In this document: piece after piece, positions 10,904-64,000 of the stretch
Numbering within the stretch: position 1 is the stretch's first letter
Layout of the letters: each line of letters begins with the position of its first letter
Assembly (NCBI RefSeq): GCF_044324785.1
Contig: NZ_CP172127.1
DNA: 64,000 bases
From: Escherichia coli
GTDB taxonomy: Bacteria; Pseudomonadota; Gammaproteobacteria; Enterobacterales; Enterobacteriaceae
Reading direction: 5' to 3' (one strand)
Notes under the pieces: generated by a model
The model's database searches: none
What the model was told of the DNA's origin: nothing
What the model saw: the letters and a program-made list of their open reading frames with translations, nothing else
Made by a program: the position numbers and the translations under genes

Positions 10904-10907
10904 GCGT

Positions 10908-15658: not shown

Positions 15659-15667
15659 GACGGGTAT

Positions 15668-15692: not shown

Positions 15693-15698
15693 GACAGA

Positions 15699-16160
15699 TT
15701 ATTTCACTTCTTTAAAACCAGCGGCTTTCATCACCAGTTCCATTTGCGCCATAGTGATACCTTTTTTGGCATCTTCAGCAGAAACGTTGATTCCTGAAAT
15801 ACCCTGCAGGGCTTTAAAATCCACTTTTTCCATATCGATAGTCACGTTTTCCTGCGCGTAGGTATCGGTATAGGTTAATTTTTCTTCAACACCCGCGATG
15901 TTTTTGTATTTGGCGCTTAACGGCTCAAGTGTCTTGGCAGCGTCTTCTTTGGTGGTTGCACCAATGGAGGCAAATTGAATTTTGGTTTCAGAAGATTGCT
16001 TAAGCACCTTGTCACCTTTGTAGACATAGGTAATGGCAATTTCAGTACCGTTCAGATTGGCGCTGAATTTTTTCGATTCTTCTTTGTCACCGCAGCCAGC
16101 AAGAGAGAAAACCAGAACAGATGCAACAACGAGGGAAAACAGCTTATTGAAAGCCTTCAT
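15699..16160 (-). CDS. yehR: Lipoprotein of unknown function
   Basis: 153 aa; lipobox LAGC in signal peptide (MKAFNKLFSLVVASVLVFSLAGC). Confidence 0.8.
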   Translation of the reverse strand: MKAFNKLFSLVVASVLVFSLAGCGDKEESKKFSANLNGTEIAITYVYKGDKVLKQSSETKIQFASIGATTKEDAAKTLEPLSAKYKNIAGVEEKLTYTDTYAQENVTIDMEKVDFKALQGISGINVSAEDAKKGITMAQMELVMKAAGFKEVK

Positions 16161-16284
16161 GTAAAACTCCATTTTATTTAATCAAGGAACTGGTGACTCT
16201 CACCAGGGGCTATATAGGATATGCCTAATACTGTGGCGTGAGCAGTCCGGAACTGGAGTAGAACTCTTAGTAAAAAGCACTATT

Positions 16285-18285
16285 TCATCCTTGTTGCTGA
16301 AGCATGGGGAATAATTGTTCGCAAAGTAAAACACCGTTATTCATTGCTTCTACCCGTGCCTCGCTTTCTGTATTACGAAATTGTGCCAACACATGTGCCA
16401 GCCGATAAAAACCCACCGCGGAGAGGTCATTCGCCAGCAACTCTGCCTGACCAATAGCACTCTGTTCCTGATAGCGCCAGCCGTTATGGAGCAGTTGAAT
16501 AAGTAACGCCTGGCAGCGCATCAGCAACTGATGAGCGGTAGACGGCACAGGCAAAACGCTGGCAGAAGGTAGCGGTGCCACAGGCGCAGTTTCTGCGTCC
16601 AGCGCCCAGGCGCGAGTTTTTGTCATCATCACCCGTGGTTCCAGTGTCAATTGCCCCTCTACAAAGCTGACAAAGCCAGAAACCAGACTCACGGGGTCGT
16701 CTGTTTGTTGCAAAAGCGCCGCCATGCGTTCAACGGCAAAAGGAGAACAGGCAGATGCCGGAAGGGATAACGTCAGCACATTATCTTCCCCTTCGCCGCT
16801 AATGACCTGCGCATCCAGTGTCTGGCGGCTGCTATCCCAACCAAGCGAAATACACTCCGCTACCGGCAGAATAAATAAGTTATCGACCTGGTTGAGTGGT
16901 CGTATGCAGGCGGGGGGACGCTGGCGTAAATATTCCCGCAAAGCCACAATGCCCGGCTGGCGCAACGGCGCACTCAACATTTGCCAGGCGTCTGGCGACA
17001 GTGGAACAACACTACTCAAGCGGTTGCGGGTAGCTAACAGCAGCTCGCCATCGGCACTGCGTTTTGCTGCTTGTGAAACAATTTGCCCACCCGCCAGTGC
17101 GCCAGCCTGAAAACTAAACAGCCGACGCGTCGCTGCCGGTGAGTTTTCCTGTTCGCTTCTCGGCCAACTACGCGAAAGGTGCAAAATACTGCCGGTGTCG
17201 GGATCGGTAAACCAGATGCGTAAACCATACTGCTCAATATCCTGCCAGCAACGCATACCTAAAGACACCAGCCGCAGATGATCAAGCTTTGCTTCTCCGG
17301 CAATGCCAGCGCCAACGACCGTGCGCCACGGCATGGGAGGAACTTCACCAACACTGTCGCGCCGGGCCATCTCTTGTGCACAATTTAATCGATTGTTTAA
17401 TGCCGCAAGCTGACATAAGCATTCTCCGGCATGATAGTGGCTGGCGCGGGCGTGGAAGGCATCAACGCTGGCGCGCAGTTGCCGTAGCGATTCACTCACC
17501 CAGCGCCAGTTGCAGCGTTCCGCCGCTTGCTGCGCGCGGCTGAAAGCAGCCTCGTAATGAATAAGCGGCTGGCTGATGCCGCCAAGCCATAACGCCTGGC
17601 TTAATTGCTGAACATATTGACGACACGCGTCGCCCTCATCGTTGGCAAACGGATCGTCAGATGATGTGACGTGTTCGCTGCGCATCTGCCAGATTAAATG
17701 AGTAAATTCCGCTTGCTGCGCTTTGGCCTGGGCAAAGGCCTGTACTGCCAGTACGACATGTTCGCAAAGTGTGCCGTCAATACAATCACAGCGTGCGAAA
17801 CGAATGCTGCTGCGGGAATAAAAACGTACATCGCTCATCGGTAAGCGGGCAGAGGGAATTTCGCCAGGCGTACAGAACAACTCAATGGTGATGCCTTTAG
17901 CGACCAGTGTCTGTGCGCGTTTGCGGGTGGCATCGGGCAGGGTAGCCAGTTCTTCCAGCCAGATTGCCGGATCCCACTCTTCTTCTTTTTCCGTAGGCTG
18001 GGTGGTGGCGCAAAGTCGCTGATAACTTAAAACCAGCATCACGCGATGGCGGCACATGCCGCTGGCCCCGCAGCTGCATTGAGCCTCTTTCAGTGCCTGA
18101 CCGTTCGCCAGCTGGGTGCGGACACCGTCACTGAAGGTGGCGATTAAAGCGCCGTTCTCATGGCTGATTTCCGGGACGTTGCCATTTTCCAGTTCTTTAA
18201 GGCTGCGCTTAACAAAACCGGCATTGCTTAACGCCGTCAAAGCTTGTGGTGTCAGTTCTAATAATTCCGGCCGTAGTGAATTCAT
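16285..18285 (-). CDS. yehQ: SWIM zinc-finger domain protein, function unknown
   Basis: 666-aa ORF; two CxCx(n)CxH motifs (CSCGASGMCRH, CDCIDGTLCEH); ATG overlaps yehP stop (ATGA); precise start not certain. Confidence 0.75.
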   Translation of the reverse strand: MNSLRPELLELTPQALTALSNAGFVKRSLKELENGNVPEISHENGALIATFSDGVRTQLANGQALKEAQCSCGASGMCRHRVMLVLSYQRLCATTQPTEKEEEWDPAIWLEELATLPDATRKRAQTLVAKGITIELFCTPGEIPSARLPMSDVRFYSRSSIRFARCDCIDGTLCEHVVLAVQAFAQAKAQQAEFTHLIWQMRSEHVTSSDDPFANDEGDACRQYVQQLSQALWLGGISQPLIHYEAAFSRAQQAAERCNWRWVSESLRQLRASVDAFHARASHYHAGECLCQLAALNNRLNCAQEMARRDSVGEVPPMPWRTVVGAGIAGEAKLDHLRLVSLGMRCWQDIEQYGLRIWFTDPDTGSILHLSRSWPRSEQENSPAATRRLFSFQAGALAGGQIVSQAAKRSADGELLLATRNRLSSVVPLSPDAWQMLSAPLRQPGIVALREYLRQRPPACIRPLNQVDNLFILPVAECISLGWDSSRQTLDAQVISGEGEDNVLTLSLPASACSPFAVERMAALLQQTDDPVSLVSGFVSFVEGQLTLEPRVMMTKTRAWALDAETAPVAPLPSASVLPVPSTAHQLLMRCQALLIQLLHNGWRYQEQSAIGQAELLANDLSAVGFYRLAHVLAQFRNTESEARVEAMNNGVLLCEQLFPMLQQQG

Positions 18286-19418
18286 GACTGAAGATTCTCC
18301 GCAAGCCAGGTCGCCAGTTCGCCCGGCGTCATGGCGGCTATTTGTGCGCCGACATTAACCAGCGCCTGGGCCGTATCGTGGTCATAGCAAGGTGTTGCGG
18401 TGCTATCGAGCGCCGCCAGTCCCAGCACTTTGACGCCGCTCTGGACACACGTTTTCACCTGATGCGTCAGCAATGATGATGAACCCCCTTCATAGAAATC
18501 GCTCACGAGGATAATGACGCTTTTCGCTGGTTGTTCAATAAGTTGCCGACCATACTCCACGGCACTGGCGATATTGGTCCCGCCGCCCAGTTGTACTTTC
18601 ATTAATAACTCTACTGGATCAGCAACGTCTGCCGTGAGATCAACGACGCTGGTGTCAAACGCCACCAGATGGGTACGAATGCCGGGTAACTGCCATAAAC
18701 AGGCCGCCATCACCGCAGAGTGGATCACCGAATCGACCATCGATCCGCTTTGATCAACCAGTAAGACCAGTTGCCATTGTTCGCTTTGGCGTTTAATGCG
18801 GCTGTTAAAGCGGGGGGATTCGATATACAACTTGCCGTGTTGCGGGTGCCAGTGTTGCAGGTTGGCGCGCAGAGTACTTTTGAAATCAAAGTTTCGCGCC
18901 AGTGGAATAAATGAGCGGCGACGGCGATCGCGGACACCAGAAAAAGCCTGGCGAACTTCCTTTGCCAGTCGCGCCATAATTTCTTCAACAACCTGGCGCA
19001 CTATCCGGCGGGCGGCAGCCAGCACTTCGGGATTCATCAGATGTTTGGTGTGCAAAACGGCGCGTAGCAGGCTTTCAGAAGGCTGCATACGTTCCAGCAC
19101 GTCGAGATTCGTCACCACATCTTCAATGCCGTAGCGCAGTACGGCATCGCTTTCCAGCCGCTCGATCACCTGTTGCGGAAACAGCGTGTGAATACTGTTG
19201 ATCCACTCAGGGGTGGTGAGATTTGAGTCACCTAATCCACCGGAGCGTTCACCACGCTGGAGCCGTTCAGGATCGCGCCCATACAGCCACTCCAGCGCGT
19301 GGTCTATCTGCCGGGCATTGTCATCCAGCCCACAAAGGGTCGTTTCTGCCGCTTCGCCAAGAATTAATCGCCAGCGTTGTAGCTCACGGGTGGTCAGAAG
19401 ATCGTTCAGTTCAGACAT
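18282..19418 (-). CDS. yehP: von Willebrand factor A (VWA) domain protein with MIDAS motif, function unknown
   Basis: 378 aa from MSELNDLLTTRELQRW...; MIDAS-like DQSGS in LLVDQSGSMVDSV; start overlaps yehM stop; track ORF extends upstream into yehM. Confidence 0.8.
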   Translation of the reverse strand: MSELNDLLTTRELQRWRLILGEAAETTLCGLDDNARQIDHALEWLYGRDPERLQRGERSGGLGDSNLTTPEWINSIHTLFPQQVIERLESDAVLRYGIEDVVTNLDVLERMQPSESLLRAVLHTKHLMNPEVLAAARRIVRQVVEEIMARLAKEVRQAFSGVRDRRRRSFIPLARNFDFKSTLRANLQHWHPQHGKLYIESPRFNSRIKRQSEQWQLVLLVDQSGSMVDSVIHSAVMAACLWQLPGIRTHLVAFDTSVVDLTADVADPVELLMKVQLGGGTNIASAVEYGRQLIEQPAKSVIILVSDFYEGGSSSLLTHQVKTCVQSGVKVLGLAALDSTATPCYDHDTAQALVNVGAQIAAMTPGELATWLAENLQS

Positions 19419-21690
19419 GGAAAACTCCCCAGTGTTGCAGCGATGCCAGTGCCTGCTGTTCGAGTTGTTGATGATGTGCAATGGCTTGCGGTGGACAATG
19501 CAACGGCATTTGCAGCGCTGAAACGGGAAGCTGTGCGAGCTGGTAATGCTCAAGCACCTGATGCGCCAGCGTCCCGCGTTCCCGTGGTGGTAGCCAGGCC
19601 ATCGCCGCACGTAAATCGGGCAGGGCGTTAATAAAATCGTCGTCACTCAGTTGATTTAAATGACTACTGAAACCGGCGATAAATGCCGGCTGACAGGCCA
19701 GTTGATGGCGGGCCAGCGCCAGCAAACCGTGCAGTGCCTCGCCGGATTGTGCCGGGGATAATTGCGCCAGCATCGTCAGCGCCGCTTCGGCACTGGCGTT
19801 GGGATGTTCCAGACGCATCAGTGCGCCAAGAGCCGCGCCGCGATCCAGCGCCGGGGCATGAATCGCCTGACTGCGGCGCTCCAGTAAGGCTACCGCCGCA
19901 GAAAGAGAAACGCCGGGTAAATTAACGCCGCTATGTAGATCGCGCAGGATATGGCAAAGCGCCTGCCAGCTATGCAGGTGAGCGTGAAACTCCTTTTCCT
20001 CCGGTCTGCCGTTGGATTCACACAGCCAGAGTGTGCGATCGATAGCCGCGCATAACGTCGTCTGTAATATCTGCGCGCCTTGCATACCGCTAATTTCATC
20101 CAGCCGCCATAAGGCGTATAGCACTTCCAGCGCCTGGCCCATTTCGGCAAACTGATTTTCCTGGGCGATTAATAATGTAAGTTGCTCCAGTAATTGTTGA
20201 CTGAAGGACGCCAGACCCGCTAACGCCGCCTGGCTAAGACATGTGGTGATACTGCCGATTCCACCCGCGTCCAGCATATCGGCTTCTAATTTATTGCGTG
20301 CGGCTTCCTGGAGTGTGGCACCAAAGCAGGCGGCCTCAATTAATGCCGCATGTTGGCTAAGCGGGCGGGTTAATTTCCAGCGTTCTTCACCGTTGCCTGC
20401 AAGTGTCAGTGTGCTTCCCTGCTGGCGTACAATCCCTGGGATCTCCAGTATTGCCAGCCGATGTAACACCTGACTTTGCGCTAGTCTATTGGGGTTAAAG
20501 CGATTTAAGGTAAGCTCCGCCGGAAGAGAGATTGCGGTACGTTCCAGTTCGCAGGTGACATCTTTTGGCAGAGGCGGTTGTGGCGTAGAAGGGGCAAGTT
20601 TACCGAATCCGTCACCCGCTAATGTGTCTATCAACGTTAGCAGAATCGGATCGGTATCGGGATGAATAACGCCGCGATAGCTCCACGGCAACGGCGCGTT
20701 CAAGGCTTCTTTAATCAGCGAGCCTGCTATGGCATCCAGCCAGTCAGTGCGTAACGGTAGTATATGACCGCGCAACTGTGCCAGCGCCATCGCATGCAGA
20801 TGAGCGGCAGCCATATCCGCTGTTGAAGCAGGCAAGTGGTGCTGGCGCAAACGGGTAAGAACCGTTTTCAGCAGTTGTTCACCTGCCTGCTGCAAGCCCC
20901 ACCGCCAGCACCAGTTTTGCCAGACCGGGGCAGGCATTCCTGAAAGGTATCCTGCCAGCACATCAAGGCGCTTTTCACTGTATGGCGTGAGATAGCAACC
21001 TGTAACGGCATCATCCAGTGAGAGCAATTCTGGCGTGTTAATTTCTTGCGGGCATTCGCGCCACATTTTTGCCAGTGCCGGAGCGTGCCAGCCTCCGCAG
21101 ACGACTAATACGTCGCCATTATTTTGCTGCATCGCCCATCCAATCCAGCGGGCCATAAAGGCTTCGCGCTGACGATTGAGTGCATCGCCGGAGGCGTCGC
21201 CCCGCAGTTGTACAAAATAGTGCGCCAGTGCAGAGGGTAATATAGTTTGCTGGCTTTCATCTTCGAACAAGTGATCCCACAGGGTGTCGCTGTTATCCAT
21301 GCGGGTGGCACGCAGCAGCAAGGTCTGGCTTTCCTCTTGCGTATCAGGCGAATTGTCCTCTTCTTCACTCTGTGCCCAGCAAGGCAAATCGATGAAGTAA
21401 GTTTGTGCCTGAATACGACGTGCGGCTTGTAGCGCCTGCCACTCCGGCGAAAATTCAGCAAATGGCGTCCAGGCACCACGCCCGGGGGCCGCACCGTCCT
21501 GATACTGGCAATAACTGTAAATAGCTACCGGAAGCTGGTGGGCTAACAACAGTTCGTCTACCCGGTCATTAAAATCAGCCGGGCCTTCAATCAACACGTA
21601 TCGTGGCCGCTGGCTTTCGATTAACGATTTCACCAGCCGGGCGCAGGCCGGACTATGATGCCGGATGCCGACAATTAACGGCTCGCTCAT
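19411..21690 (-). CDS. yehM: Large protein of unknown function (759 aa)
   Basis: ATG at 21690 preceded by GAGGAAAG, 10 nt after yehL stop; Leu/Ala/Gln-rich, no motif I can assign. Confidence 0.75.
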   Translation of the reverse strand: MSEPLIVGIRHHSPACARLVKSLIESQRPRYVLIEGPADFNDRVDELLLAHQLPVAIYSYCQYQDGAAPGRGAWTPFAEFSPEWQALQAARRIQAQTYFIDLPCWAQSEEEDNSPDTQEESQTLLLRATRMDNSDTLWDHLFEDESQQTILPSALAHYFVQLRGDASGDALNRQREAFMARWIGWAMQQNNGDVLVVCGGWHAPALAKMWRECPQEINTPELLSLDDAVTGCYLTPYSEKRLDVLAGYLSGMPAPVWQNWCWRWGLQQAGEQLLKTVLTRLRQHHLPASTADMAAAHLHAMALAQLRGHILPLRTDWLDAIAGSLIKEALNAPLPWSYRGVIHPDTDPILLTLIDTLAGDGFGKLAPSTPQPPLPKDVTCELERTAISLPAELTLNRFNPNRLAQSQVLHRLAILEIPGIVRQQGSTLTLAGNGEERWKLTRPLSQHAALIEAACFGATLQEAARNKLEADMLDAGGIGSITTCLSQAALAGLASFSQQLLEQLTLLIAQENQFAEMGQALEVLYALWRLDEISGMQGAQILQTTLCAAIDRTLWLCESNGRPEEKEFHAHLHSWQALCHILRDLHSGVNLPGVSLSAAVALLERRSQAIHAPALDRGAALGALMRLEHPNASAEAALTMLAQLSPAQSGEALHGLLALARHQLACQPAFIAGFSSHLNQLSDDDFINALPDLRAAMAWLPPRERGTLAHQVLEHYQLAQLPVSALQMPLHCPPQAIAHHQQLEQQALASLQHWGVFHV

Positions 21691-22900: not shown

Positions 22901-22981
22901 AAAAAAACCTGCTGGTGAGGCAGGTTCTTTTATTTACTACAGTGACGCTAACTTGCTGATTGTGCAACATTTCGTACCAAC
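22901..22981 (-). ncRNA. orzO: OrzO-like antitoxin sRNA, copy 1 (~81 nt, boundaries inferred)
   Basis: Minus-strand TATAAT (22993-22988) 17 bp from palindromic TTGCAA (23011-23016); intrinsic terminator on minus strand (stem cctgc/gcagg 22908-22924 followed by U7 at 22907-22901); 5' 18 nt (22964-22981) complementary to zor 5'UTR 23132-23149 with one G-U. Confidence 0.5.
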
Positions 22982-23508: not shown

Positions 23509-23589
23509 AAAAAAACCTGCTGGTGAGGCAGGTTCTTTTATTTACTACTTTGATGTTAAGTTACTGATAGTGCAACATGGCATCTCAAC
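23509..23589 (-). ncRNA. OrzP/OrzO-like antitoxin sRNA, copy 2 (boundaries inferred)
   Basis: Same architecture shifted by 608 bp; 5' pairing region differs from copy 1 at several positions and matches its own cis toxin UTR better. Confidence 0.45.
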
Positions 23590-24344: not shown

Positions 24345-24404
24345 CGCTTTTCCCGGTGGCAGGTCGTGTTAATAACGGGCAGTCGCATCACTGCCCGCTG
24401 TGTT

Positions 24405-53131: not shown

Positions 53132-53552
53132 GGACGGTATATGACTAACCTGTTTGTTCGTAGCGGAATTTCTTTTGTCGATCGTAGCGAAGTTTTAACC
53201 CATATCGGTAATGAGATGCTCGCGAAAGGTGTGGTTCATGATACCTGGCCACAGGCATTAATTACCAGAGAAGCAGAATTCCCTACCGGGATAATGCTTG
53301 AGCAGCACGCCATTGCAATACCGCATTGTGAGGCGATTCATGCTAAGTCGTCAGCCATTTATCTGTTAAGGCCAACAAATAAAGTTCATTTTCAGCAAGC
53401 GGATGATGATAACGACGTGGCGGTATCGTTGGTTATTGCGTTGATTGTGGAAAATCCGCAGCAGCAATTGAAACTTTTACGCTGTTTATTTGGCAAGTTA
53501 CAACAGCCCGATATCGTCGAGACACTAATCACTCTTCCTGAAACCCAGTTAA

Positions 53553-54747
<1,195 letters not shown>

Positions 54748-54822
54748 TTAAAGGAATACTTCACAAAGTATGTTTTAGATTCAGACGAATAAATCCCTCT
54801 GTAACAATAAAAAGGACTATTT

Positions 54823-55107
54823 ATGAAACGCAAAATTATTGTCGCTTGCGGAGGCGCGGTTGCGACCTCTACGATGGCGGCGGAAGAAATTAAAGAGTTG
54901 TGTCAGAGTCATAATATTCCTGTTGAATTAATCCAGTGTCGGGTTAATGAAATAGAAACCTATATGGATGGCGTGCATTTGATATGCACCACTGCCAGGG
55001 TGGATCGTAGTTTTGGCAATATTCCGTTAGTTCACGGCATGCCTTTTGTTTCTGGTGTCGGTATCGAAGCATTACAAAATAAAATTCTGACTATCTTACA
55101 GGGGTGA
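54823..55107 (+). CDS. gatB: Galactitol PTS EIIB
   Basis: 94 aa ([22 protein letters not shown]...), active-site Cys in VACGG. Confidence 0.9.
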
Positions 55108-55110
55108 CCT

Positions 55111-56466
55111 ATGTTTTCAGAAGTCATGCGTTATATTCTCGACCTCGGCCCTACGGTGATGCTGCCGATTGTCATCATTATTTTTTCTAAAATATTAGGC
55201 ATGAAGGCAGGCGATTGCTTTAAAGCAGGTCTGCATATCGGGATTGGCTTTGTTGGCATTGGCCTTGTGATTGGCTTAATGCTGGATTCCATTGGCCCGG
55301 CGGCGAAAGCGATGGCGGAAAATTTTGACCTGAATCTGCATGTGGTCGATGTCGGCTGGCCGGGCTCTTCACCCATGACTTGGGCGTCGCAAATTGCGCT
55401 GGTGGCGATTCCGATTGCGATTCTGGTTAACGTGGCGATGTTACTGACCCGTATGACGCGGGTGGTAAATGTTGATATCTGGAATATCTGGCATATGACC
55501 TTCACCGGCGCGTTGCTGCATCTGGCAACCGGTTCATGGATGATAGGGATGGCGGGTGTGGTAATTCACGCGGCGTTTGTTTATAAGCTCGGCGACTGGT
55601 TTGCCCGCGATACCCGAAATTTCTTTGAGCTGGAAGGCATTGCTATTCCGCACGGTACGTCGGCGTATATGGGGCCGATTGCGGTGCTGGTCGATGCTAT
55701 CATCGAGAAAATCCCAGGCGTTAACCGAATTAAATTTAGCGCCGATGATATTCAGCGCAAATTTGGCCCTTTTGGCGAACCGGTCACCGTGGGTTTTGTG
55801 ATGGGGCTGATTATCGGCATCCTTGCGGGTTACGATGTCAAAGGTGTATTGCAGCTGGCGGTAAAAACGGCGGCAGTTATGCTGCTGATGCCACGGGTGA
55901 TTAAACCCATCATGGATGGTTTAACGCCCATCGCTAAGCAGGCCCGTAGTCGTTTACAGGCGAAGTTCGGCGGTCAGGAGTTCCTGATTGGCCTTGATCC
56001 GGCGTTGCTGCTGGGGCATACGGCGGTGGTATCGGCAAGCCTGATTTTTATCCCGCTCACCATTTTAATTGCTGTTTGTGTTCCGGGTAATCAGGTACTG
56101 CCGTTTGGCGACCTTGCCACCATCGGTTTCTTTGTGGCGATGGCGGTCGCCGTGCATCGTGGAAATCTGTTCCGCACCTTAATCTCGGGTGTCATCATTA
56201 TGAGCATCACCCTGTGGGTCGCGACGCAAACTATTGGTTTGCACACCCAACTGGCGGCTAACGCTGGGGCGTTAAAAGCCGGAGGTATGGTGGCATCAAT
56301 GGATCAGGGCGGTTCTCCCATTACCTGGTTACTGATTCAGGTTTTCTCCCCGCAAAATATTCCCGGTTTCATTATTATCGGTGCCATTTATCTTACCGGT
56401 ATTTTCATGACCTGGCGTAGAGCGCGCGGCTTTATTAAACAAGAGAAAGCCGTTCTCGCAGAATAA
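55111..56466 (+). CDS. gatC: Galactitol PTS EIIC permease
   Basis: 451 aa polytopic membrane protein. Confidence 0.9.
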   Translation: MFSEVMRYILDLGPTVMLPIVIIIFSKILGMKAGDCFKAGLHIGIGFVGIGLVIGLMLDSIGPAAKAMAENFDLNLHVVDVGWPGSSPMTWASQIALVAIPIAILVNVAMLLTRMTRVVNVDIWNIWHMTFTGALLHLATGSWMIGMAGVVIHAAFVYKLGDWFARDTRNFFELEGIAIPHGTSAYMGPIAVLVDAIIEKIPGVNRIKFSADDIQRKFGPFGEPVTVGFVMGLIIGILAGYDVKGVLQLAVKTAAVMLLMPRVIKPIMDGLTPIAKQARSRLQAKFGGQEFLIGLDPALLLGHTAVVSASLIFIPLTILIAVCVPGNQVLPFGDLATIGFFVAMAVAVHRGNLFRTLISGVIIMSITLWVATQTIGLHTQLAANAGALKAGGMVASMDQGGSPITWLLIQVFSPQNIPGFIIIGAIYLTGIFMTWRRARGFIKQEKAVLAE

Positions 56467-56513
56467 TTTTTACCTGAGGGGGAGTTTATCCCCCTTAATA
56501 ATCAGGAGTTTTT

Positions 56514-57554
56514 ATGAAATCAGTGGTGAATGATACTGATGGTATCGTGCGCGTTGCCCAACGAGTCATTCCTGAAATTAAACATCAGGATGAGGTGCGG
56601 GTAAAAATTGCCAGCTCGGGATTATGTGGTTCCGATTTACCCAGGATATTTAAAAATGGTGCACATTATTATCCAATAACGTTAGGCCATGAATTTAGCG
56701 GCTATATTGATGCGGTGGGATCCGGTGTTGATGATTTACACCCTGGCGATGCGGTTGCCTGTGTGCCGTTATTACCCTGTTTTACTTGTCCAGAGTGTTT
56801 GAAAGGGTTTTATTCCCAGTGCGCAAAATATGATTTTATTGGCTCGCGGCGTGATGGTGGATTTGCTGAATATATTGTCGTTAACCGAAAAAATGTCTTT
56901 GCTCTACCCACGGATATGCCTATTGAGGATGGGGCTTTTATTGAGCCGATTACCGTTGGCCTGCATGCTTTTCATTTAGCGCAAGGTTGTGAGAATAAAA
57001 ACGTTATTATTATTGGTGCCGGAACCATTGGCTTGCTGGCTATTCAGTGCGCTGTCGCGCTGGGAGCAAAGAGTGTGACGGCGATCGACATTAGCTCAGA
57101 AAAACTGGCACTGGCAAAATCTTTCGGTGCGATGCAAACATTTAACAGCCTTGAAATGAGCGCGCCGCAAATGCAGGGCGTTTTACGCGAGTTGCGCTTT
57201 AATCAGCTTATCCTCGAGACGGCTGGCGTCCCGCAAACCGTCGAACTGGCGGTAGAGATTGCCGGGCCTCATGCCCAGCTGGCGCTGGTGGGTACGTTGC
57301 ATCAGGATTTGCATTTAACATCGGCAACGTTTGGCAAAATATTACGTAAAGAGCTGACGGTTATCGGCAGCTGGATGAACTACTCCAGCCCTTGGCCGGG
57401 GCAGGAGTGGGAAACGGCGAGCCGGTTGCTGACAGAACGTAAGTTAAGCCTGGAGCCATTAATCGCTCACCGTGGAAGCTTTGAAAGCTTCGCCCAGGCG
57501 GTGCGTGACATCGCTCGTAATGCTATGCCGGGCAAAGTGTTGCTTATTCCCTGA
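56514..57554 (+). CDS. gatD: Galactitol-1-phosphate 5-dehydrogenase (Zn-dependent MDR family)
   Basis: 346 aa; zinc ligands C...H (GLCGSDL...GHEFSG), Rossmann GAGTIG. Confidence 0.9.
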   Translation: MKSVVNDTDGIVRVAQRVIPEIKHQDEVRVKIASSGLCGSDLPRIFKNGAHYYPITLGHEFSGYIDAVGSGVDDLHPGDAVACVPLLPCFTCPECLKGFYSQCAKYDFIGSRRDGGFAEYIVVNRKNVFALPTDMPIEDGAFIEPITVGLHAFHLAQGCENKNVIIIGAGTIGLLAIQCAVALGAKSVTAIDISSEKLALAKSFGAMQTFNSLEMSAPQMQGVLRELRFNQLILETAGVPQTVELAVEIAGPHAQLALVGTLHQDLHLTSATFGKILRKELTVIGSWMNYSSPWPGQEWETASRLLTERKLSLEPLIAHRGSFESFAQAVRDIARNAMPGKVLLIP

Positions 57555-57559
57555 AACCG

Positions 57560-57582
57560 CGGGCCAGCGTGATGCTGGCCCG
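57560..57582 (+). terminator. Hairpin after gatD
   Basis: cgggccagc-gtgat-gctggcccg perfect 9-bp stem; U-tract poor. Confidence 0.4.
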
Positions 57583-57659
57583 GTATTGTGCAAAACAGAT
57601 CATTCACCAATGGTCCCCCTTCGTTTACACTAGCCACAATTGAATATGGGTAAATGACG

Positions 57660-58433
57660 ATGAATTCATTCGAGCGAAGGAATAAGATCATCCAATTAGT
57701 GAATGAACAGGGAACCGTGCTTGTTCAGGATCTGGCGGGAGTATTTGCTGCCTCGGAAGCGACAATCCGTGCCGATTTGCGCTTTCTCGAACAAAAAGGC
57801 GTGGTTACGCGCTTTCATGGCGGTGCGGCGAAAATAATGTCCGGTAATAGTGAAACCGAGACCCAGGAAGTCGGGTTTAAAGAGCGATTTCAGCTCGCCA
57901 GCGCGCCGAAAAACAGAATAGCGCAGGCGGCAGTCAAAATGATCCACGAAGGGATGACCGTTATTCTCGACAGCGGAAGTACGACAATGCTTATCGCCGA
58001 AGGATTAATGACCGCCAAAAATATCACGGTGATTACCAACAGTCTCCCGGCGGCGTTTGCCCTTTCCGAAAATAAAGACATTACTCTGGTCGTCTGTGGT
58101 GGCACGGTCCGCCATAAAACGCGCTCGATGCATGGTTCCATTGCCGAGCGTTCATTGCAGGATATTAATGCCGATTTAATGTTTGTCGGTGCTGATGGTA
58201 TTGATGCGGTTAATGGTATTACGACCTTTAATGAAGGTTATTCTATTAGCGGTGCGATGGTCACAGCCGCTAATAAAGTGATTGCCGTTCTCGATTCATC
58301 GAAATTTAACCGTCGCGGTTTTAATCAGGTACTGCCAATCGAAAAAATTGACATTATTATTACCGATGATGCTGTGTCAGAGGTGGATAAACTGGCATTG
58401 CAGAAGACACGGGTAAAATTAATTACGGTGTAG
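57660..58433 (+). CDS. gatR: DeoR-family repressor of the gat operon, uninterrupted
   Basis: 257 aa from MNSFERRNKIIQLVNEQGTVLVQDLAGVFAASEATIRADLRFLEQKG (DeoR HTH) with C-terminal sugar-phosphate-binding domain. Confidence 0.85.
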   Translation: MNSFERRNKIIQLVNEQGTVLVQDLAGVFAASEATIRADLRFLEQKGVVTRFHGGAAKIMSGNSETETQEVGFKERFQLASAPKNRIAQAAVKMIHEGMTVILDSGSTTMLIAEGLMTAKNITVITNSLPAAFALSENKDITLVVCGGTVRHKTRSMHGSIAERSLQDINADLMFVGADGIDAVNGITTFNEGYSISGAMVTAANKVIAVLDSSKFNRRGFNQVLPIEKIDIIITDDAVSEVDKLALQKTRVKLITV

Positions 58434-58444
58434 TATTGTTCTGT

Positions 58445-58478
58445 ATGCCGGATAAGGTGTTTACACCGCATCCGGCAT
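58445..58478. repeat. REP element
   Basis: gccggataaggtgtttacaccgcatccggca, canonical REP-like palindrome. Confidence 0.65.
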
Positions 58479-58514
58479 TACGGATTCTCCCTGGTTCAAG
58501 AGAGAATAGTTTGA

Positions 58515-59414
58515 TTAACGCAATAATGGACAATCTGGTGGTAATCGACAACGCAACGCCGCCGGAAGTATTTCAATATGAAAGTTTTGTCCGCTCAACG
58601 GTTCGCCATCAAGATTAAAAGTGATTTCGTGTGGGGCTTGTATATCAAACCACGACGAAGCGCCTTCGATAATATTCGGGTTATCTTCGTCAGATTTTAA
58701 GGTTGATACGAGAGCCGGAAGAATTTCATCGCCGGTAAAAATGCGCAGTTGCAGCAAGCCATCGTTAATTAACGCGTTCGGGCACAATTGTTGACCGCCA
58801 CCGGCCTGACGCCCGTTACCAATACCAATGACCAGGGCGTCACCTTGCCAGTGAAAGTTTTCACCGCGGATCTCACAACGGTCCGGTTGCAGAGTATCCA
58901 TGCGCATTAAGCCATGAATGATGTAAGAGACGCCACCCAGCGCGGCTTTTAATTTTTCCGGCGTTTCTGTGGTAATACGCGTCCCAAACCCGCCTGTCGC
59001 CATATTAATAAAACAGGTTTGTTTGTTGACCTGCGCCATATCTATCGCAATGGCGTTACCGGCAATTGCCAGTTTCAGCGCCTTATCCAGTGCCTCAGGA
59101 ATCCCTACACTGGTGGCAAAATCATTGGCGGTTCCTAATGGTAAAATTCCCAGCGCGGGTATGTCATCCCCCTCACACTGAATCAACGCCGTAGAAACTT
59201 CATTAATGGTGCCATCGCCACCACCGGCAATCACCGTTGCGACGCCCAACTTCCGGGCCTCCTCTACATATCGTGCGGCATCGCCTTTCTCCCAGGTGAC
59301 CCGCACATGGATCGTCATTCCTTCCTCACGCAACAGCATAATTGCTTCGCGCAAGGGTAGATTGTCAGTACTTTTGCCATTAAGAATCAGTAAGCTGGCG
59401 GGAAATTCTGCCAT
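58515..59414 (-). CDS. yegS: Lipid kinase (diacylglycerol kinase catalytic-domain family)
   Basis: 299 aa; GGDGT motif ([13 protein letters not shown]). Confidence 0.9.
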
Positions 59415-59828
59415 GATCGTATGTGCCTTTATGATTGGTCTGTAGATAGTGTAGAGCAGAAAAGAAAAGGTGGAGTCAGAACAGGATGAAAGTCGGAGGA
59501 TAAAAAGTCAGTTCAAGTATGGAGGATTCAGTGGTTACCACCAGGAGCTTGCAATGGGGACAGTGAATGTTAACGGTAGCCACCGGTAAATTTCAAAAAA
59601 GAGCATATACCTAATATTCAATTAAACAGTGGCATCTTCACTATCTTATTCTAAATATATTAAAGCCCTCATGGGGGTACCTGGGCAGGGCTTCATGTTT
59701 GTAATTCCTACTTATGTAGGAAATGTTGTACAGAACATTTATTATAATCCTATTCAATTATAATAATCATGCCGTTATTATATTTAAACACCAGAGCGTG
59801 TCGTTGGTATTTAATGGGGGAAGGTAAG

Positions 59829-60146
59829 ATGAAAAAGATAGCTGCTATATCATTAATTAGTGTTTTTCTTATGTCTGGGTGTGCTGTACATAATGATGAG
59901 ACAAGTATCGGTAAATTTGGTCTTGCATATAAAAGTAATATTCAGCGTAAACTCGATAACCAATACTACACCGAAGCCGAAGCTTCTTTAGCCAGGGGCA
60001 GAATATCTGGTGCAGAAAATATAGTAAAAAATGATGCAGCCCATTTCTGTGTTACTCAGGGCAAAAAAATGCAGATAGTTGACCTGAAGACAGAAGGTGC
60101 AGGATTACATGGCGTCGCTCGTCTGACATTCAAATGTGGAGAGTGA
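59829..60146 (+). CDS. yegR: Small lipoprotein-like protein of unknown function
   Basis: 105 aa from MKKIAAISLISVFLMSGC (lipobox); ATG at 59829 after GGGGGAAGG. Confidence 0.75.
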   Translation: MKKIAAISLISVFLMSGCAVHNDETSIGKFGLAYKSNIQRKLDNQYYTEAEASLARGRISGAENIVKNDAAHFCVTQGKKMQIVDLKTEGAGLHGVARLTFKCGE

Positions 60147-60316
60147 GAATATTTTTTGGTAAGCGTCAAACATGCGCGTTCTGGCTGTGCGTAACCGGAA
60201 CCTGTGCGAGCACGATGCCGTTACGTGAAAGGCATCGTGCTATGAAGGGAGATTCTATCGATGTGGTCAATGGAAGACGGTCACCTGGGATCAATCCGTC
60301 TCTATGGTTTATGTAT

Positions 60317-60343
60317 AAAAAATAAGCCCGTGTAAGGGAGATT
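60317..60343. other. Candidate P2-type attachment-site core (attL) at chromosome-prophage junction
   Basis: aaaaaataagcccgtgtaagggagatt, 80 bp beyond the 3' end of the integrase gene; matches my recollection of the 27-bp P2 att core. Confidence 0.5.
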
Positions 60344-60422
60344 TAGGGTGTCACCAGTAGGGGCTTTCAACGGTACAATGCGGGTTTGAGCGGCATAAAT
60401 TACCACTGAAAGCCCTTAAACG

Positions 60423-61436
60423 TTACTCTACTGTGGACACTGTGTGGACACTCTCGGCTTCAGTACCACCTCTTAGCGGATTAAGAGAAATGGCGTCCTG
60501 AAGGTACTCTGGCGCAAAATGAGCGTAAACCATAGTTTGCTCAATCCGCGTGTGACCTAGTATCCGTTGTAGCGTGATAATACTTCCTCCATTAATCATG
60601 AAATGAGTGGCAAAGCTGTGCCTTAGTGCATGTGTGGCTTGCCCCGTTGGCAAATCCGGTTTTATTGCTTTCATTGTTCGTCTGAAGCGAGGGTAATCAG
60701 CATCAGGGAATAAAAAACCTCGTTTGTTATCCGCGATCATTTTGGCAACAGCCTCTGAGATCGGGACGGTGCGTGGTTTGTTTGTTTTCGTTTTAACAAA
60801 CGTGACGCGGTTATGGATGATATTTTCTGCTTTCAAACGAGCTGCTTCTCCCCAACGTGCTCCTGTACTCAGGCAAAGAATCGCAATCTTTTTATTGTCG
60901 CCGTCAAGTGCTGCAAGCAGTAAGGCAATTTCTTCCTGTGTGAGATAGCCTGTTTCTGGTTTTTCCTCCTTAAGCCTCTTTGTCCCTCTGATAGGGTGCT
61001 CACCAAAGAATAACTCCGCTTCAATCAGGGCTGTAAACATGCCGCTAATACATGTTAAATCACGATTGATACTCGAAGGTTTAATACCCTGACTTCTTCG
61101 GGTGGCGCAGTACTGGCTGATAAGGGATTTCGTGATTTGAAATGCGCATGGGTCATTCGTTATTTTTGTGAAGATTTCAATTTTTCCAAGATTAGATTTC
61201 CCATGCTCTTCGTGTTTACCCTTTAAATCCCACCAGATCTGTGTCAGTTCCGACAGACGTCGTTTGTCTGTTGGTTTTGATAGCCATTCTTTATTGTGGT
61301 GGTTGTACAACGTGTATTTTTCGAAAGCGACAGCTTCGCTTTTCTTATCAAACTTCCTACGGATGCGTTTTCCGTTACGTCCAGTAGGGCGGATGTCCAC
61401 TTCATATCGACCATCATCGAGTTTTTTGATTGCCAT
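60423..61436 (-). CDS. int: P2-type tyrosine integrase
   Basis: 337 aa; C-terminal catalytic region with R...HxLRH...Y (HALRHSFATHFMINGGSIITLQRILGHTRIEQTMVYAHF). Confidence 0.9.
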   Translation of the reverse strand: MAIKKLDDGRYEVDIRPTGRNGKRIRRKFDKKSEAVAFEKYTLYNHHNKEWLSKPTDKRRLSELTQIWWDLKGKHEEHGKSNLGKIEIFTKITNDPCAFQITKSLISQYCATRRSQGIKPSSINRDLTCISGMFTALIEAELFFGEHPIRGTKRLKEEKPETGYLTQEEIALLLAALDGDNKKIAILCLSTGARWGEAARLKAENIIHNRVTFVKTKTNKPRTVPISEAVAKMIADNKRGFLFPDADYPRFRRTMKAIKPDLPTGQATHALRHSFATHFMINGGSIITLQRILGHTRIEQTMVYAHFAPEYLQDAISLNPLRGGTEAESVHTVSTVE

Positions 61437-61550
61437 CAGAAAACCCTCCGAGTGGTACTTTTTTTGCTACTACTAATCGCTTTTTTCGTGGTGGCTGAAA
61501 TTTAGCCACCAATAGTAGGCACTTGTGATGAATATATTCACGATAAATTG

Positions 61551-61850
61551 TTAACCAGTCTTTTGACCGGAGTGGGGCGACGTTGTTTCGTTTTGCCCAA
61601 AGTGTGCGAGAGCGGGCGCAATTTGCCCGGCTTCTGGAGCTACCTGATCAGTCATGAACCACAAAGTATATTTAGTAAATCTGGGATGTTGTAAGACCTT
61701 CATTATGGCTTCAACTCCAGCGTTTTTTGACCGGCTCTCATAGCTCGAAAGTGAGCTGTAGGCTACACCAGTTAATTCACTGAATTCTTTACGGTTTAAC
61801 CTTTCAGATTCACGGATTAGCTTCAACTTCTCCGAAACGTCTATTGACAT
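61551..61850 (-). CDS. C: P2-type immunity repressor C
   Basis: 99 aa from internal ATG at 61850 (MSIDVSEKLKLIRESERLNRKEFSELTGVAYSS..., HTH), preceded by GGAGT; track ORF starts 72 nt upstream. Confidence 0.8.
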   Translation of the reverse strand: MSIDVSEKLKLIRESERLNRKEFSELTGVAYSSLSSYESRSKNAGVEAIMKVLQHPRFTKYTLWFMTDQVAPEAGQIAPALAHFGQNETTSPHSGQKTG

Positions 61851-61928
61851 AATTACTCCGATTGCGTAATTTCTTGCTGATAGTGTGAAATGTTGTGCTT
61901 CTGGAGTTATCCTTTTAGGCAATAATTA

Positions 61929-61946
61929 GCCATTAGGAGCCATTAG
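61929..61946. promoter_or_regulatory. Direct 8-bp repeats in the prophage lysis/lysogeny switch region (candidate repressor operator half-sites)
   Basis: gccattag at 61929-61936 and 61939-61946, 10-bp periodicity, between C and cox starts. Confidence 0.4.
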
Positions 61947-61971
61947 AAGCACTAAGGGAGAATCGTAGCAG

Positions 61972-62247
61972 ATGAATAGACAGCTTGTAAGCGTGACTGA
62001 TGCCGTGCCTTATCAGGAGTTTGCAAAACTCATTGGTAAAACTCCAAGAGCTGTAAGGGGCATGATTGAGAAAGGGAAATTACCAGTTATTGAGATTACT
62101 GACCCTCAGTCAGTATCGGGGCGTGCTGGTGAATATTGGGTATACCTTCCGGCATGGAATAACGGACTAAAACTGGCTTATGAAAGCCGTCCTAAAGAGA
62201 TTCGTGACGGCTGGTTGATGTGGTTAGGTCTCGGTGAACCACGTTAA
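61972..62247 (+). CDS. cox: P2 Cox-like excisionase/repressor of Pc
   Basis: 91 aa; position divergent from C. Confidence 0.8.
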   Translation: MNRQLVSVTDAVPYQEFAKLIGKTPRAVRGMIEKGKLPVIEITDPQSVSGRAGEYWVYLPAWNNGLKLAYESRPKEIRDGWLMWLGLGEPR

Positions 62248-62428
62248 GGAGAACCGTATGAATGAGCCTCGTTGTATTGCTCAGTTATTGCGTAACGAAA
62301 GCCCCAGGGCGATTGACTTCACCATCACCCACGGTAAGGGGCATAAGGGAATCATTATCCGCACCAAAAAACAGAGTCCGTTAAAAAAGGCTCTGACCTT
62401 TCTGAAAAGCCGGAGGGTATGGAAATGA
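62234..62428 (+). CDS. P2 orf78-like small protein
   Basis: Short ORF between cox and B in the same orientation; start uncertain. Confidence 0.5.
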   Translation: MNHVKENRMNEPRCIAQLLRNESPRAIDFTITHGKGHKGIIIRTKKQSPLKKALTFLKSRRVWK

Positions 62429-62925
62429 CAGTGATGACGCTCAATCTCGTTGAAAAACAACCAGTAACTATGCGCCGGATAATTGGTAAGCATCTTGCCG
62501 TCCCTCGCTGGCAGGAGACATGTGATTATTATAATCAGATGATGGAGCGCGAACGGCTAACGGTTTGCTTCCATGCGCAGTTAAAACAGCGTCACGCAAC
62601 GATGCGTTTTGAAGAAATGAACGACGTCGAACGTGAACGACTGGTATGTGCAATTGATGAATTGCGTGGGGCATTCTCAAAACGCCGTCAGGTTGGCGCA
62701 AGTGAATATGCATATATTAGTTTTTTAACAGTCAGTCAGCGTCGTACTTTATTTATGCATGCCGGATTGACTGAAAAAGAATTCAACCAGCCATACTGGC
62801 GAATTAATGATGAATCATGTTACTGGCGTGATGCTTTATTCCGTGCATTACGTGAATTATTCAGCCTGTTTGAGTATGCACCGACAATTCTGACGTCGGT
62901 AAAACCAGAGCAATATCTGCATTAA
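62425..62925 (+). CDS. B: P2 B-like replication protein (helicase loader)
   Basis: 166 aa from MTVMTLNLVEKQPV...; position after cox/orf78. Confidence 0.75.
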   Translation: MTVMTLNLVEKQPVTMRRIIGKHLAVPRWQETCDYYNQMMERERLTVCFHAQLKQRHATMRFEEMNDVERERLVCAIDELRGAFSKRRQVGASEYAYISFLTVSQRRTLFMHAGLTEKEFNQPYWRINDESCYWRDALFRALRELFSLFEYAPTILTSVKPEQYLH

Positions 62926-62988
62926 GTAATTAACCAGAGTTTTTAACGCACTTAATTGTGCGGGGCTTCTTTTTGCCTGGAGAAAGTC

Positions 62989-63213
62989 ATGCATACAGTT
63001 TCTGAAAATCAGTGCGGTAAATACGCATTACTGCTGCAACAGGCCAGAACCGAAGCACAGGCCGACGCAGCGACGCGCTTTTCTTCTCATCTTGACGCCA
63101 TGATTCGCCACATCACAAAGGCGGAGTTATCCCGCGTGGAGATAGTCGAGCTGCTCAGTCAGGAGTCGGAAAAATTTCACAATATCGGATTGTCTCGTGG
63201 GGAGGTGCTTTGA
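62989..63213 (+). CDS. P2 orf80-like protein
   Basis: ATG at 62989 after GGAGAAAG; 74 aa. Confidence 0.55.
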
Positions 63214-63515
63214 TGTCCTGTTCTCGTTCAATTGTATTACTGAATAACGCCTTAAAAATCGCCGTTATGGAAAATGGCGATTTGTCTCTTATTCAACTTG
63301 GTCTTGATAAAGAAAAGCGCGACATAACTGAATCTGTTATCGCGATTTATCAGAGCGAATTAAACCTCCTGTCTGATGTGATCAATTTACTTGTGAAACG
63401 CGCTGTATTTCACAAGCAAATTTCCTCAGTGGATGAACTGACAAAATTAACGACAGAACTCGCCAGCTATTGCGCTGATGAATTTAAGAAACTGAACGAC
63501 AAAAGGAACTGGTAA
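63210..63515 (+). CDS. P2 orf81-like protein
   Basis: 101 aa, ATGA overlap with previous ORF. Confidence 0.55.
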
Positions 63516-63739
63516 TGCCGGACAACGTAGATTTCATTCAGGAACAACAGGCTGAATTACTGGAGCGCCAGATTAACGCGGCAAGGGTAAAACATTGCTG
63601 TGCTTCTGCGCTGGTTTGCGAAGAGTGTGATGCGCCAATACCTGCTGCCCGTCGTGCGGCTTATCCGTCAGCCACGCGTTGTGTTTCCTGCCAGTCAGTC
63701 TTTGAAGCAAAAAACAAGCATTACCGGAGAATGGCATGA
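63515..63739 (+). CDS. P2 orf82-like DksA/TraR-type C4 zinc-finger protein
   Basis: 74 aa with CxxC...CxxC (CEECDAPIPAARRAAYPSATRCVSCQ). Confidence 0.65.
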   Translation: MPDNVDFIQEQQAELLERQINAARVKHCCASALVCEECDAPIPAARRAAYPSATRCVSCQSVFEAKNKHYRRMA

Positions 63740-64000
63740 GTATTCGTATCGAAATTGGCGAACGTTATGTCGTTACCAGTGACAGCTTTCAGTTTATTCT
63801 CCACGAGAAAAAGAGAGCGGAAAGCGGTAAAAACGCCGGCCAGGAATGGCTGGCGGTGGTTGGTTATTACCCGAAATTAAGCCAGCTCGTTTCCGGCATG
63901 ATGCATCACGATATTCTGACCGGAAGCGCAAAATCTTTTGCTGATTTAAACGCGCAGGTTGAGCAACTCAGCAAGCGTTGTTCAGAGGCTTTTGGCTCAC
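63736..64000 (+). CDS. P2 orf83-like protein, partial (runs off window)
   Basis: ATG at 63736 (ATGA overlap with previous ORF), open to window end (MSIRIEIGERYVVTSDSFQFILHEKK...). Confidence 0.5.
   Translation, partial: MSIRIEIGERYVVTSDSFQFILHEKKRAESGKNAGQEWLAVVGYYPKLSQLVSGMMHHDILTGSAKSFADLNAQVEQLSKRCSEAFGS

What the first reader, a model, noticed from the sequence alone, without database searches (positions are those of the whole stretch)
60317..64000. P2-like prophage left arm integrated next to yegR, with candidate 27-bp att core
Seen in sequence: integrase (337 aa), C repressor (99 aa), Cox (91 aa), B and small early ORFs in the P2 order, beginning 80 bp after aaaaaataagcccgtgtaagggagatt. 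Established knowledge (from memory): K-12 retains only a small P2 remnant (ogrK/yegZ) at this locus, so this strain carries a fuller prophage whose late genes, and any accessory cargo between tail and ogr genes, lie beyond the window.
Basis: partly seen in the sequence, partly recalled or inferred. Interest (0 to 1): 0.5.

Follow-up and report, generated by a model that had tools for sequence, protein, structure and literature searches.

The report
P2-like prophage end at cyaR site
This is the integrase end of an ordinary P2-family prophage sitting in the well-known P2 attachment site at the 3' end of the small-RNA gene cyaR, an arrangement found in about one in seven complete E. coli genomes.

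Summary
The 27-bp string at 60317-60343 is identical to the annotated attP core of phage P2. It is also identical to the last 27 nt of the sRNA gene cyaR, which is P2's preferred site (locI). To its right lie the P2 P' arm and nine open, unfragmented ORFs in P2 order. These are int (336/337 aa identical to P2), C, cox, orf78, B and orf80-83. Only a 313-bp cassette (N-terminus of C, the operator/promoter spacer, N-terminus of Cox) differs from P2. C is 65% identical to P2 C, so this phage probably has a different immunity specificity; its repressor is identical to that of vB_EcoM-720R8. The same yegR-int junction is present in 740 of 5426 complete E. coli genomes. The far end cannot be seen in the window. 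A contig 100% identical to the last 9.25 kb of the window, followed through near-identical contigs, reaches D-ogr-core-cyaR-trhP. That gives a 33.3-kb prophage with a second exact core. One minor extra: the "bacterial" arm left of the core is itself a decayed P2 P arm, present even at unoccupied E. coli sites. Low interest; already known.

The parts
60238..60316 (.). 'Bacterial' arm of attL. It is a decayed copy of the P2 ogr-terminator 3' half, the P arm (one of two Int arm-type repeats kept: TCGATGTGGTCAATG) and the IHF region. It is also present at unoccupied E. coli sites.
   Evidence: Local alignment with the P2 P arm, core excluded, scores 25; 2000 shuffles gave 8.5 +/- 1.5, maximum 16. 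blastn homology starts at 60258, which corresponds to the first base of the annotated P2 'Int P arm' site. The same arm is in empty-site strain Ecol_545 and in K-12. It is absent from Kluyvera cyaR loci.
60317..60343 (+). attL core: 27 bp identical to the P2 attP core. On the minus strand it is the last 27 nt (terminator 3' half plus U-run) of cyaR, here separated from the cyaR body.
   Evidence: K-12 cyaR is 2167114-2167200 and the core is 2167174-2167200
60344..60457 (.). P' arm of attL. By position it contains the Cox-binding region (60360-60433) and the two Int arm-type repeats TGTGGACA (60431-60457) annotated in P2.
   Evidence: Identical to P2 from the core to the end of int except for one base; coordinates transferred from the AF063097 annotation
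60423..61436 (-). int, P2-type tyrosine integrase, 337 aa
   Evidence: 336/337 aa identical to P2 Int. The identical-length 337-aa product in L028, whose DNA is 100% identical to the window across this gene, carries PF24624 Int_N and PF00589 Phage_integrase.
61551..61850 (-). C, immunity repressor, 99 aa. The N-terminal DNA-binding half has diverged from P2; the C-terminal part is identical.
   Evidence: 65% identical to P2 C. 100% identical to the vB_EcoM-720R8 repressor and to the last 99 aa of E. coli W ADT75726.1.
61681..61993 (.). Immunity cassette: the only stretch that does not match P2 at megablast level. It comprises the 5' part of C, the Pe/Pc-operator spacer 61851-61971 and the 5' part of cox.
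   Evidence: Megablast pieces against P2 end at 61680 and resume at 61994. In the spacer alignment the TTGACA -35 is kept but the P2 operator repeats are not.
61972..62247 (+). cox, 91 aa: repressor of Pc and excision directionality factor
   Evidence: 84% identical to P2 Cox, with differences concentrated in the N-terminal half; PF10743 Phage_Cox on the corresponding 91-aa product in L028
62258..62428 (+). orf78, 56 aa
   Evidence: 55/56 identical to P2 Orf78
62425..62925 (+). B, replication protein, 166 aa
   Evidence: 97% identical to P2 gpB; PF26815 Phage_RepB
62947..62962 (+). Terminator-like hairpin after B, at the position of the putative terminator annotated in P2
62989..63213 (+). orf80 (DUF2732), 74 aa
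   Evidence: 73/74 identical to P2
63213..63515 (+). orf81 (DUF5405), 100 aa
   Evidence: 93% identical to P2
63515..63739 (+). orf82, TraR/DksA-type zinc finger, 74 aa
   Evidence: 97% identical to P2; PF01258
63736..64000 (+). orf83 (DUF5405), cut by the window end
   Evidence: 86/88 identical to P2

Best explanation
The stretch is the attL junction and early (int-C-cox-B-orf80-83) region of a P2-family (Peduovirus) prophage. The phage integrated by Int/IHF-mediated site-specific recombination between its attP and the chromosomal site formed by the last 27 nt of the sRNA gene cyaR (P2 locI). Integration duplicates the core. cyaR should therefore stay intact at the far (ogr) end, while an orphan copy of its terminator half sits next to int at 60317-60343. 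Lysogeny is held by the C repressor acting on the early promoter Pe. Cox represses Pc and directs excision. Because the C/operator/Cox-N-terminus cassette has been swapped, the phage should be heteroimmune to P2 while using P2's integrase and attachment site. What is shown: the sequence identities, the gene order, the identity of the core with both attP and the cyaR 3' end, and the population frequency. What is inferred: that the prophage is complete in this strain, that attR exists about 33.3 kb further on, and that the immunity specificity differs.
For: The core equals the annotated P2 attP core and is unique in the window. The P' arm is identical to P2 and Int is 336/337 identical. Gene order and 93-99% protein identity hold for orf78 to orf83. 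In K-12 the core is the last 27 nt of cyaR, and PR-X lies between cyaR and yegR. The E. coli W genome paper lists 'cyaR RNA' as a P2 prophage insertion site, occupied in W and B and holding ogr-D' in K-12 (PMC3032704). 740 of 5426 complete E. coli genomes have the contiguous yegR-int...orf83 stretch. JNE25-003 has a full 34-kb prophage there with two exact cores. Contig CATRGX010000003.1 is 100.000% identical to window 54748-64000 and continues with A, cargo, Q, P ... S. It is 99.99% identical over 10 kb to L046. L046 is 100% identical over 16.6 kb to L059, which ends D-ogr-P arm-core-cyaR-trhP. C is 65% identical to P2 C, whereas immunity groups share at least 95% (PMC3448106).
Against: The window stops in orf83, so neither the late genes nor attR of this particular genome were seen. 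The source genome itself was not found: the best complete E. coli genome is 98.7% identical, and the genome-contig scan found no two-core record. Decayed or truncated versions exist among relatives, for example frameshifted L034/L055 and the truncated L011. No operator repeats for the variant C could be identified, so heteroimmunity rests on sequence divergence alone.
Confidence: 0.9

Rival explanations
1. Only a left-arm remnant is present. The prophage is truncated or rearranged shortly beyond the window, mirroring K-12 PR-X, which keeps only the right arm.
For: The window ends at orf83. P2-like prophages do decay at this locus (K-12 PR-X). Relatives include frameshifted copies (L034/L055) and one case where the early region stops inside orf82 and is followed by colicin/microcin genes (L011).
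Against: All nine ORFs in the window are open and full length. The contig that is 100% identical over 9.25 kb continues uninterrupted through A, the cargo, Q, P, O, N, M, L, lysis genes, R and S. Near-identical contigs then reach ogr and attR.
Confidence: 0.08
2. It is phage P2 itself (same immunity class), so a P2 lysogen in the strict sense.
For: Int, the att core, the P' arm and the early genes are 93-100% identical to P2.
Against: C is only 65% identical and Cox 84%. The 313-bp switch cassette does not match at megablast level. Immunity groups are defined by at least 95% identity of C (PMC3448106).
Confidence: 0.02
3. The 27-bp match is a chance or merely host-derived sequence (the cyaR terminator), with no role as a recombination site.
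For: The sequence is host sRNA terminator sequence in every E. coli.
Against: Here it is detached from the cyaR body. It sits exactly at the switch from host-type to P2 DNA and is followed by the complete P2 P' arm. In related genomes a second exact copy closes the prophage next to cyaR. Zero matches are expected by chance.
Confidence: 0.005

Closest known systems
Bacteriophage P2 (AF063097 / NC_001895) as a prophage at locI
   Same: Identical 27-bp core, identical P' arm, Int 336/337 identical. Same order int-C-cox-orf78-B-orf80-83, with 93-99% protein identity outside the switch.
   Different: The immunity cassette 61681-61993 is replaced: C 65% identical, Cox 84%, operator spacer not conserved. 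In the near-identical relatives the A-Q hotspot carries a C5-methyltransferase plus two unknown proteins instead of P2's own genes there; old and tin are named at that locus in P2 by PMC9122126.
Escherichia phage vB_EcoM-720R8 (ON470606, a prophage record that includes yegS/yegR)
   Same: 98.4% identical over the whole stretch, identical C repressor, same yegR-side junction.
   Different: The bacterial arm differs by a small deletion and a few substitutions. It is not the same strain.
E. coli K-12 cryptic prophage PR-X (yegZ/ogrK)
   Same: Same attachment site between yegR and cyaR, with the same decayed P-arm-like bacterial arm next to yegR.
   Different: K-12 keeps only the first 18 nt of the attL core fused to the 3' part of gene D, then ogr and attR. 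It lacks int, C, cox, B and orf80-83, which are all present here.
E. coli W prophage at cyaR (called Wphi2 in PMC3032704)
   Same: P2-type prophage listed at the 'cyaR RNA' site. An E. coli W 'repressor protein C' (ADT75726.1) is identical to this C over all 99 residues.
   Different: I did not verify which of the two W prophages encodes ADT75726.1, and I did not compare the rest of the genome.

Membership tests
P2-like phage (Peduovirus) with P2-type regulatory region | P2-type tyrosine integrase immediately next to the attachment site | tested here: met
   336/337 identical to P2 Int; Int_N and Phage_integrase domains recorded for the corresponding 337-aa product in L028; stop codon 79 bp from the core
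P2-like phage (Peduovirus) with P2-type regulatory region | attP-derived core and P' arm (Cox sites, Int arm-type repeats) | tested here: met
   Core identical to the annotated attP core; P' arm identical except for one base
P2-like phage (Peduovirus) with P2-type regulatory region | Divergently arranged C repressor and cox genes, followed by the early operon orf78-B-orf80-83-A | tested here: met
   Gene order and identities; A lies beyond the window but follows in the identical contig L028
P2-like phage (Peduovirus) with P2-type regulatory region | P2 late genes (Q P O N M L ... FI FII E T U D) and ogr, closed by attR with a second core | not testable with these tools
   These lie outside the window and the source genome was not found. 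They are present in the 100%-identical proxy contig up to gene S, and in near-identical contigs up to ogr-core-cyaR. They are also present in JNE25-003.
P2 immunity group (homoimmune with P2) | C repressor at least 95% identical to P2 C, with the same operator repeats | tested here: not met
   C is 65% identical; the P2 O1/O2 region is not conserved; the threshold comes from PMC3448106
Prophage integrated at the cyaR 3' end (P2 locI) | Core equals the 3' end of cyaR, and the prophage lies between yegR and cyaR/trhP | tested here: met
   Core equals the last 27 nt of K-12 cyaR. yegR lies 170 bp left of the core in the window. The cyaR side was seen only in relatives. The site is listed in PMC3032704.
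Cryptic remnant of the K-12 PR-X type | Only D'-ogr-attR retained, with the int side deleted | tested here: not met
   The int side is complete here, unlike K-12

The most novel reading that the evidence does not exclude
The 'bacterial' arm of this att site (60238-60316) is not neutral host DNA. It is the fossil of the ogr-terminator/P-arm end of an older P2-like prophage, fixed in Escherichia and present even at 'empty' sites. The low-GC gene yegR beside it could then be a domesticated leftover of that ancient element. The surviving Int arm-type repeat might also influence how well P2-type phages use or leave this preferred site.
Probability: 0.3. Interest if true: 0.3.

Novelty: already known. 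Interest (0 to 1): 0.08.

Why it matters
It matters little beyond annotation. It marks the boundary of a P2-family prophage, tells an annotator that cyaR should be looked for about 33 kb further on, and predicts an immunity type different from P2. P2-like prophages are already known to be common: about 30% of ECOR strains carry one (PMC1904263), and 14% of complete genomes have one at this very site. Their cargo hotspots have been mined systematically for defence systems (PMC9122126). The small additional point, that the att site's host arm is a decayed phage arm, is a footnote on the long history of phage traffic at cyaR.

Tried and rejected
(1) Finding the source genome so as to read attR directly. 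The best complete E. coli genome is only 98.7% identical. A scan of the species-representative genomes for the core gave 11 single-core loci (Kluyvera spp., E. coli E69, Escherichia sp. MOD1-EC7003, two MAG contigs) and no two-core record. NZ_CP164475.1 is not in the annotated collection. I therefore walked along exact-protein look-ups, which gave a proxy, not the source.

(2) The second 'aagggagatt' at 60244-60253, which looks like a partial second core. I rejected this reading. It aligns with the 3' half of the P2 ogr terminator (GAGGGGCTTTT) within the fossil arm, and it reads aaggaggatt in K-12.

(3) Operator repeats for the variant C repressor. The repeat finder found none, and hand inspection was inconclusive. 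The promoter scan did not pick up Pe/Pc because the -10 elements fall below its threshold.

(4) An RNA structure role for the orphan core at attL. Folding the minus strand 60425-60305 gave no terminator hairpin involving the core, z = -2.3. Rfam found no CyaR in the window, as expected if cyaR lies beyond the prophage.

(5) A phage origin for yegR. tblastn against phage records hit only two records that include host flank.

(6) Naming the cargo proteins. PADLOC and NCBIfam recognise only the C5-methyltransferase; the others fall in PHROG families of unknown function.
Full report
OBSERVATION. The 27-mer AAAAAATAAGCCCGTGTAAGGGAGATT is at 60317-60343 on the + strand. It occurs once in the window even when 3 mismatches are allowed, and it had 0 matches in 100 dinucleotide-preserving shuffles.
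- int 60423-61436 (-), 337 aa, with its stop codon 79 bp from the core
- C 61551-61850 (-), 99 aa
- cox 61972-62247 (+), 91 aa
- orf78 62258-62428
- B 62425-62925, 166 aa
- orf80 62989-63213
- orf81 63213-63515
- orf82 63515-63739
- orf83 from 63736, cut by the window end

To the left are yegR (59829-60146, +), yegS (58515-59414, -), an intact gatR and the gat operon.

WHAT IT IS. Megablast against phage records matches bacteriophage P2 over 91% of 60300-64000 at 96.7% identity. It matches the prophage-derived record vB_EcoM-720R8 over 100% at 98.4%. In the P2 record the 27-mer is the annotated attP core, 24356-24382. From the core to the end of int, the window is identical to P2 except for one base. 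This stretch carries the annotated Cox-binding region and the two Int arm-type repeats of the P' arm.

Protein identities to P2 are as follows:

| Protein | Identity to P2 |
|---|---|
| Int | 336/337 |
| Orf78 | 55/56 |
| B | 97% |
| Orf80 | 73/74 |
| Orf81 | 93% |
| Orf82 | 97% |
| Orf83 | 86/88 |
| Cox | 84% |
| C | 65% |

The divergence is confined to one cassette. Megablast pieces against P2 stop at 61680 and resume at 61994. That interval covers the N-terminal (DNA-binding) half of C, the Pe/Pc-operator spacer and the N-terminal part of Cox. The -35 TTGACA of Pe is kept, but the P2 operator repeats are not.

Immunity groups of P2-like coliphages share at least 95% identity in C (PMC3448106). 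Seven to ten such classes are known (PMC1904263; PMC3448106). This phage is therefore a P2 relative with P2's integrase and att site but most probably a different immunity specificity. Its repressor is identical to that of vB_EcoM-720R8 and to the last 99 residues of an E. coli W 'repressor protein C'. It has been seen on at least 1000 contigs, the counting cap.

THE SITE. In K-12 MG1655 the 27-mer is exactly the last 27 nt of the sRNA gene cyaR: cyaR is 2167114-2167200 and the core is 2167174-2167200. Cryptic prophage PR-X lies between cyaR and yegR. Read in window orientation, K-12 has the following order:
- yegR
- the same bacterial arm
- the first 18 nt of the core, fused to the 3' part of gene D (yegZ)
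- ogrK
- the ogr terminator
- the P arm
- a complete core
- cyaR

The E. coli W genome paper lists 'cyaR RNA' as a P2-prophage insertion site: occupied in W and B, holding ogr-D' in K-12, and empty in Crooks (PMC3032704).

Among 5426 complete E. coli genomes, 740 carry the contiguous yegR-int...orf83 stretch. A synthetic unoccupied site (yegR-core-cyaR-trhP) is covered at 80% or more in 4562 genomes. That second count joins pieces up to 884 bp apart, so it includes sites with short K-12-like remnants. Strain JNE25-003 (98.7% identical to the window here) has a complete 34-kb prophage bounded by two exact cores.

BEYOND THE WINDOW. The source genome was not found. Exact-protein look-ups did give contig CATRGX010000003.1 (GCA_958309045.1). 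It is 100.000% identical to window 54748-64000, and it differs upstream only by lacking an IS5. On that contig the prophage continues with A, three cargo genes, Q, P, O, N, M, L, X, the lysis genes, R and S. That stretch is 99.99% identical over 10 kb to L046. L046 is in turn 100% identical over 16.6 kb to L059. L059 runs through V, W, J, I, H, G, FI, FII, E, T, U, D and ogr, then the terminator, the P arm, the exact 27-bp core, cyaR and trhP.

Chaining these coordinates gives a core-to-core length of 33,324 bp and places attR near window-equivalent coordinate 93,640 (derived). This is strong indirect support that the prophage is complete, but it is not an observation of the source genome.

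In this lineage the A-Q hotspot carries a C5 DNA methyltransferase plus two proteins of unknown function: PF20553 / phrog_19983, and HATPase_c_3 / phrog_20521. Unknown genes of 261 aa and 175 aa occupy the S-V and G-FI positions. The A-Q interval is an established hotspot of anti-phage systems in P2-like phages, with 1,650 gene arrangements reported in E. coli (PMC9122126).

HOW IT WORKS. This part rests on established P2 biology applied to the anatomy; it is inferred, not tested here. Int, with IHF, recombines attP with the cyaR 3' end. Because the phage carries the same 27 nt, cyaR is reconstituted at attR, and an orphan copy of its terminator half is left beside int at attL. C represses the early promoter Pe and maintains lysogeny. 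Cox represses Pc and is required for excision. B and A drive replication.

A SMALL EXTRA. The 'bacterial' arm left of the core (about 60238-60316) is significantly similar to the P2 P arm even when the core is excluded. The local alignment score is 25, against 8.5 +/- 1.5 and a maximum of 16 in 2000 shuffles. blastn homology begins at 60258, which corresponds to the first base of the annotated Int P-arm site. One of the two arm-type repeats (TCGATGTGGTCAATG) is intact.

The same arm is present at an unoccupied site (Ecol_545) and in K-12. It is better preserved in Escherichia sp. MOD1-EC7003. It is absent from the cyaR loci of five Kluyvera species. In the divergent strain E69 the core abuts the yegS upstream region, with neither yegR nor the arm. 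yegR is low in GC, 33-39% against about 50% in the flanks.

The simplest reading is that the Escherichia attB carries the scar of an older P2-like prophage end. Whether yegR belonged to that element, and whether the scar has any effect on recombination, is open. The alternative is that E69 lost this DNA by imprecise excision.

VERDICT. The finding is real and correctly interpreted, and it is ordinary: a heteroimmune P2-family prophage in the classical cyaR/locI site. Novelty: already known. Interest: low.

Noticed in passing
window 53553-54747 (target duplication TTAA at 53549-53552 and 54748-54751): A 1195-bp IS5 is inserted in the 3' end of gatA, with terminal repeats GGAAGGTGCGAACAAG.../...CTTATTCGCACCTTCC and a 330-aa IS5-family transposase ORF (53621-54613). 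It is absent from all eight related contigs compared (L028-L035), including the one otherwise identical to the window. It is likely polar on gatBCD.
   Followed up: partly
window 60238-60316: The host-side arm of attL is a decayed copy of the P2 ogr-terminator/P-arm/IHF region. It is also present at unoccupied E. coli sites and in K-12, and absent in Kluyvera, so it looks like the scar of an older P2-like prophage at cyaR.
   Followed up: partly
window 59500-60150 (yegR) compared with L018 (E. coli E69) and L027 (Escherichia sp. MOD1-EC7003): yegR lies in a 33-39% GC stretch directly between the yegS promoter region and the fossil arm. E69 has yegS, about 110 bp, then core and cyaR, with no yegR. 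MOD1-EC7003 has most of yegR deleted or inverted but keeps the fossil arm.
   Followed up: partly
window 22901-22974 and 23509-23582 (-): Two tandem OrzO-P antitoxin sRNA matches (Rfam RF02083, 89-92 bits), that is, a duplicated zorO-orzO type I toxin-antitoxin locus. From memory this locus is absent from K-12; I did not check that here.
   Followed up: no
window 57654-58433: gatR is intact (259 aa), whereas in K-12 MG1655 it is split by IS3E. Combined with the IS5 in gatA, the gat operon here is disrupted in a different way from K-12.
   Followed up: no
L028 13928-17437 (same phage lineage, beyond the window): The A-Q hotspot cargo is a C5 DNA methyltransferase (383 aa) with a convergent pair: a 330-aa PF20553 protein (phrog_19983) and a 472-aa HATPase_c_3 protein (phrog_20521). 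Neither of the pair is in PADLOC or NCBIfam. This could be a restriction-like or other defence module. The exact 472-aa protein is listed in 430 blocks of the collection.
   Followed up: partly
L046 10525-11310 (-) and 17059-17586 (+): Two further non-P2 genes of unknown function in the same phage lineage: 261 aa (phrog_2407) between S and V, and 175 aa (phrog_5483) at the Z/fun position between G and FI.
   Followed up: partly
L011 (CP133101.1) 10303-20303: A P2-like early region (331-aa integrase type, at a different chromosomal site) stops inside orf82. It is followed by ParE toxin, an RNase T-like gene, colicin Ia, microcin V and an ABC exporter, so this is a prophage remnant fused to bacteriocin genes.
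   Followed up: no
L022 (MAG 'Collinsella sp.') and L019 (MAG 'Citrobacter sp.'): Contigs binned to Collinsella and Citrobacter carry E. coli-type P2 attR-cyaR and yegR-attL junctions respectively. This is probably mis-binning or contamination of the MAGs.
   Followed up: no
L026 (Kluyvera intermedia) 890-1000: A diverged P2-type P arm directly precedes the core and cyaR, indicating that P2-like phages also use the cyaR site in Kluyvera.
   Followed up: no
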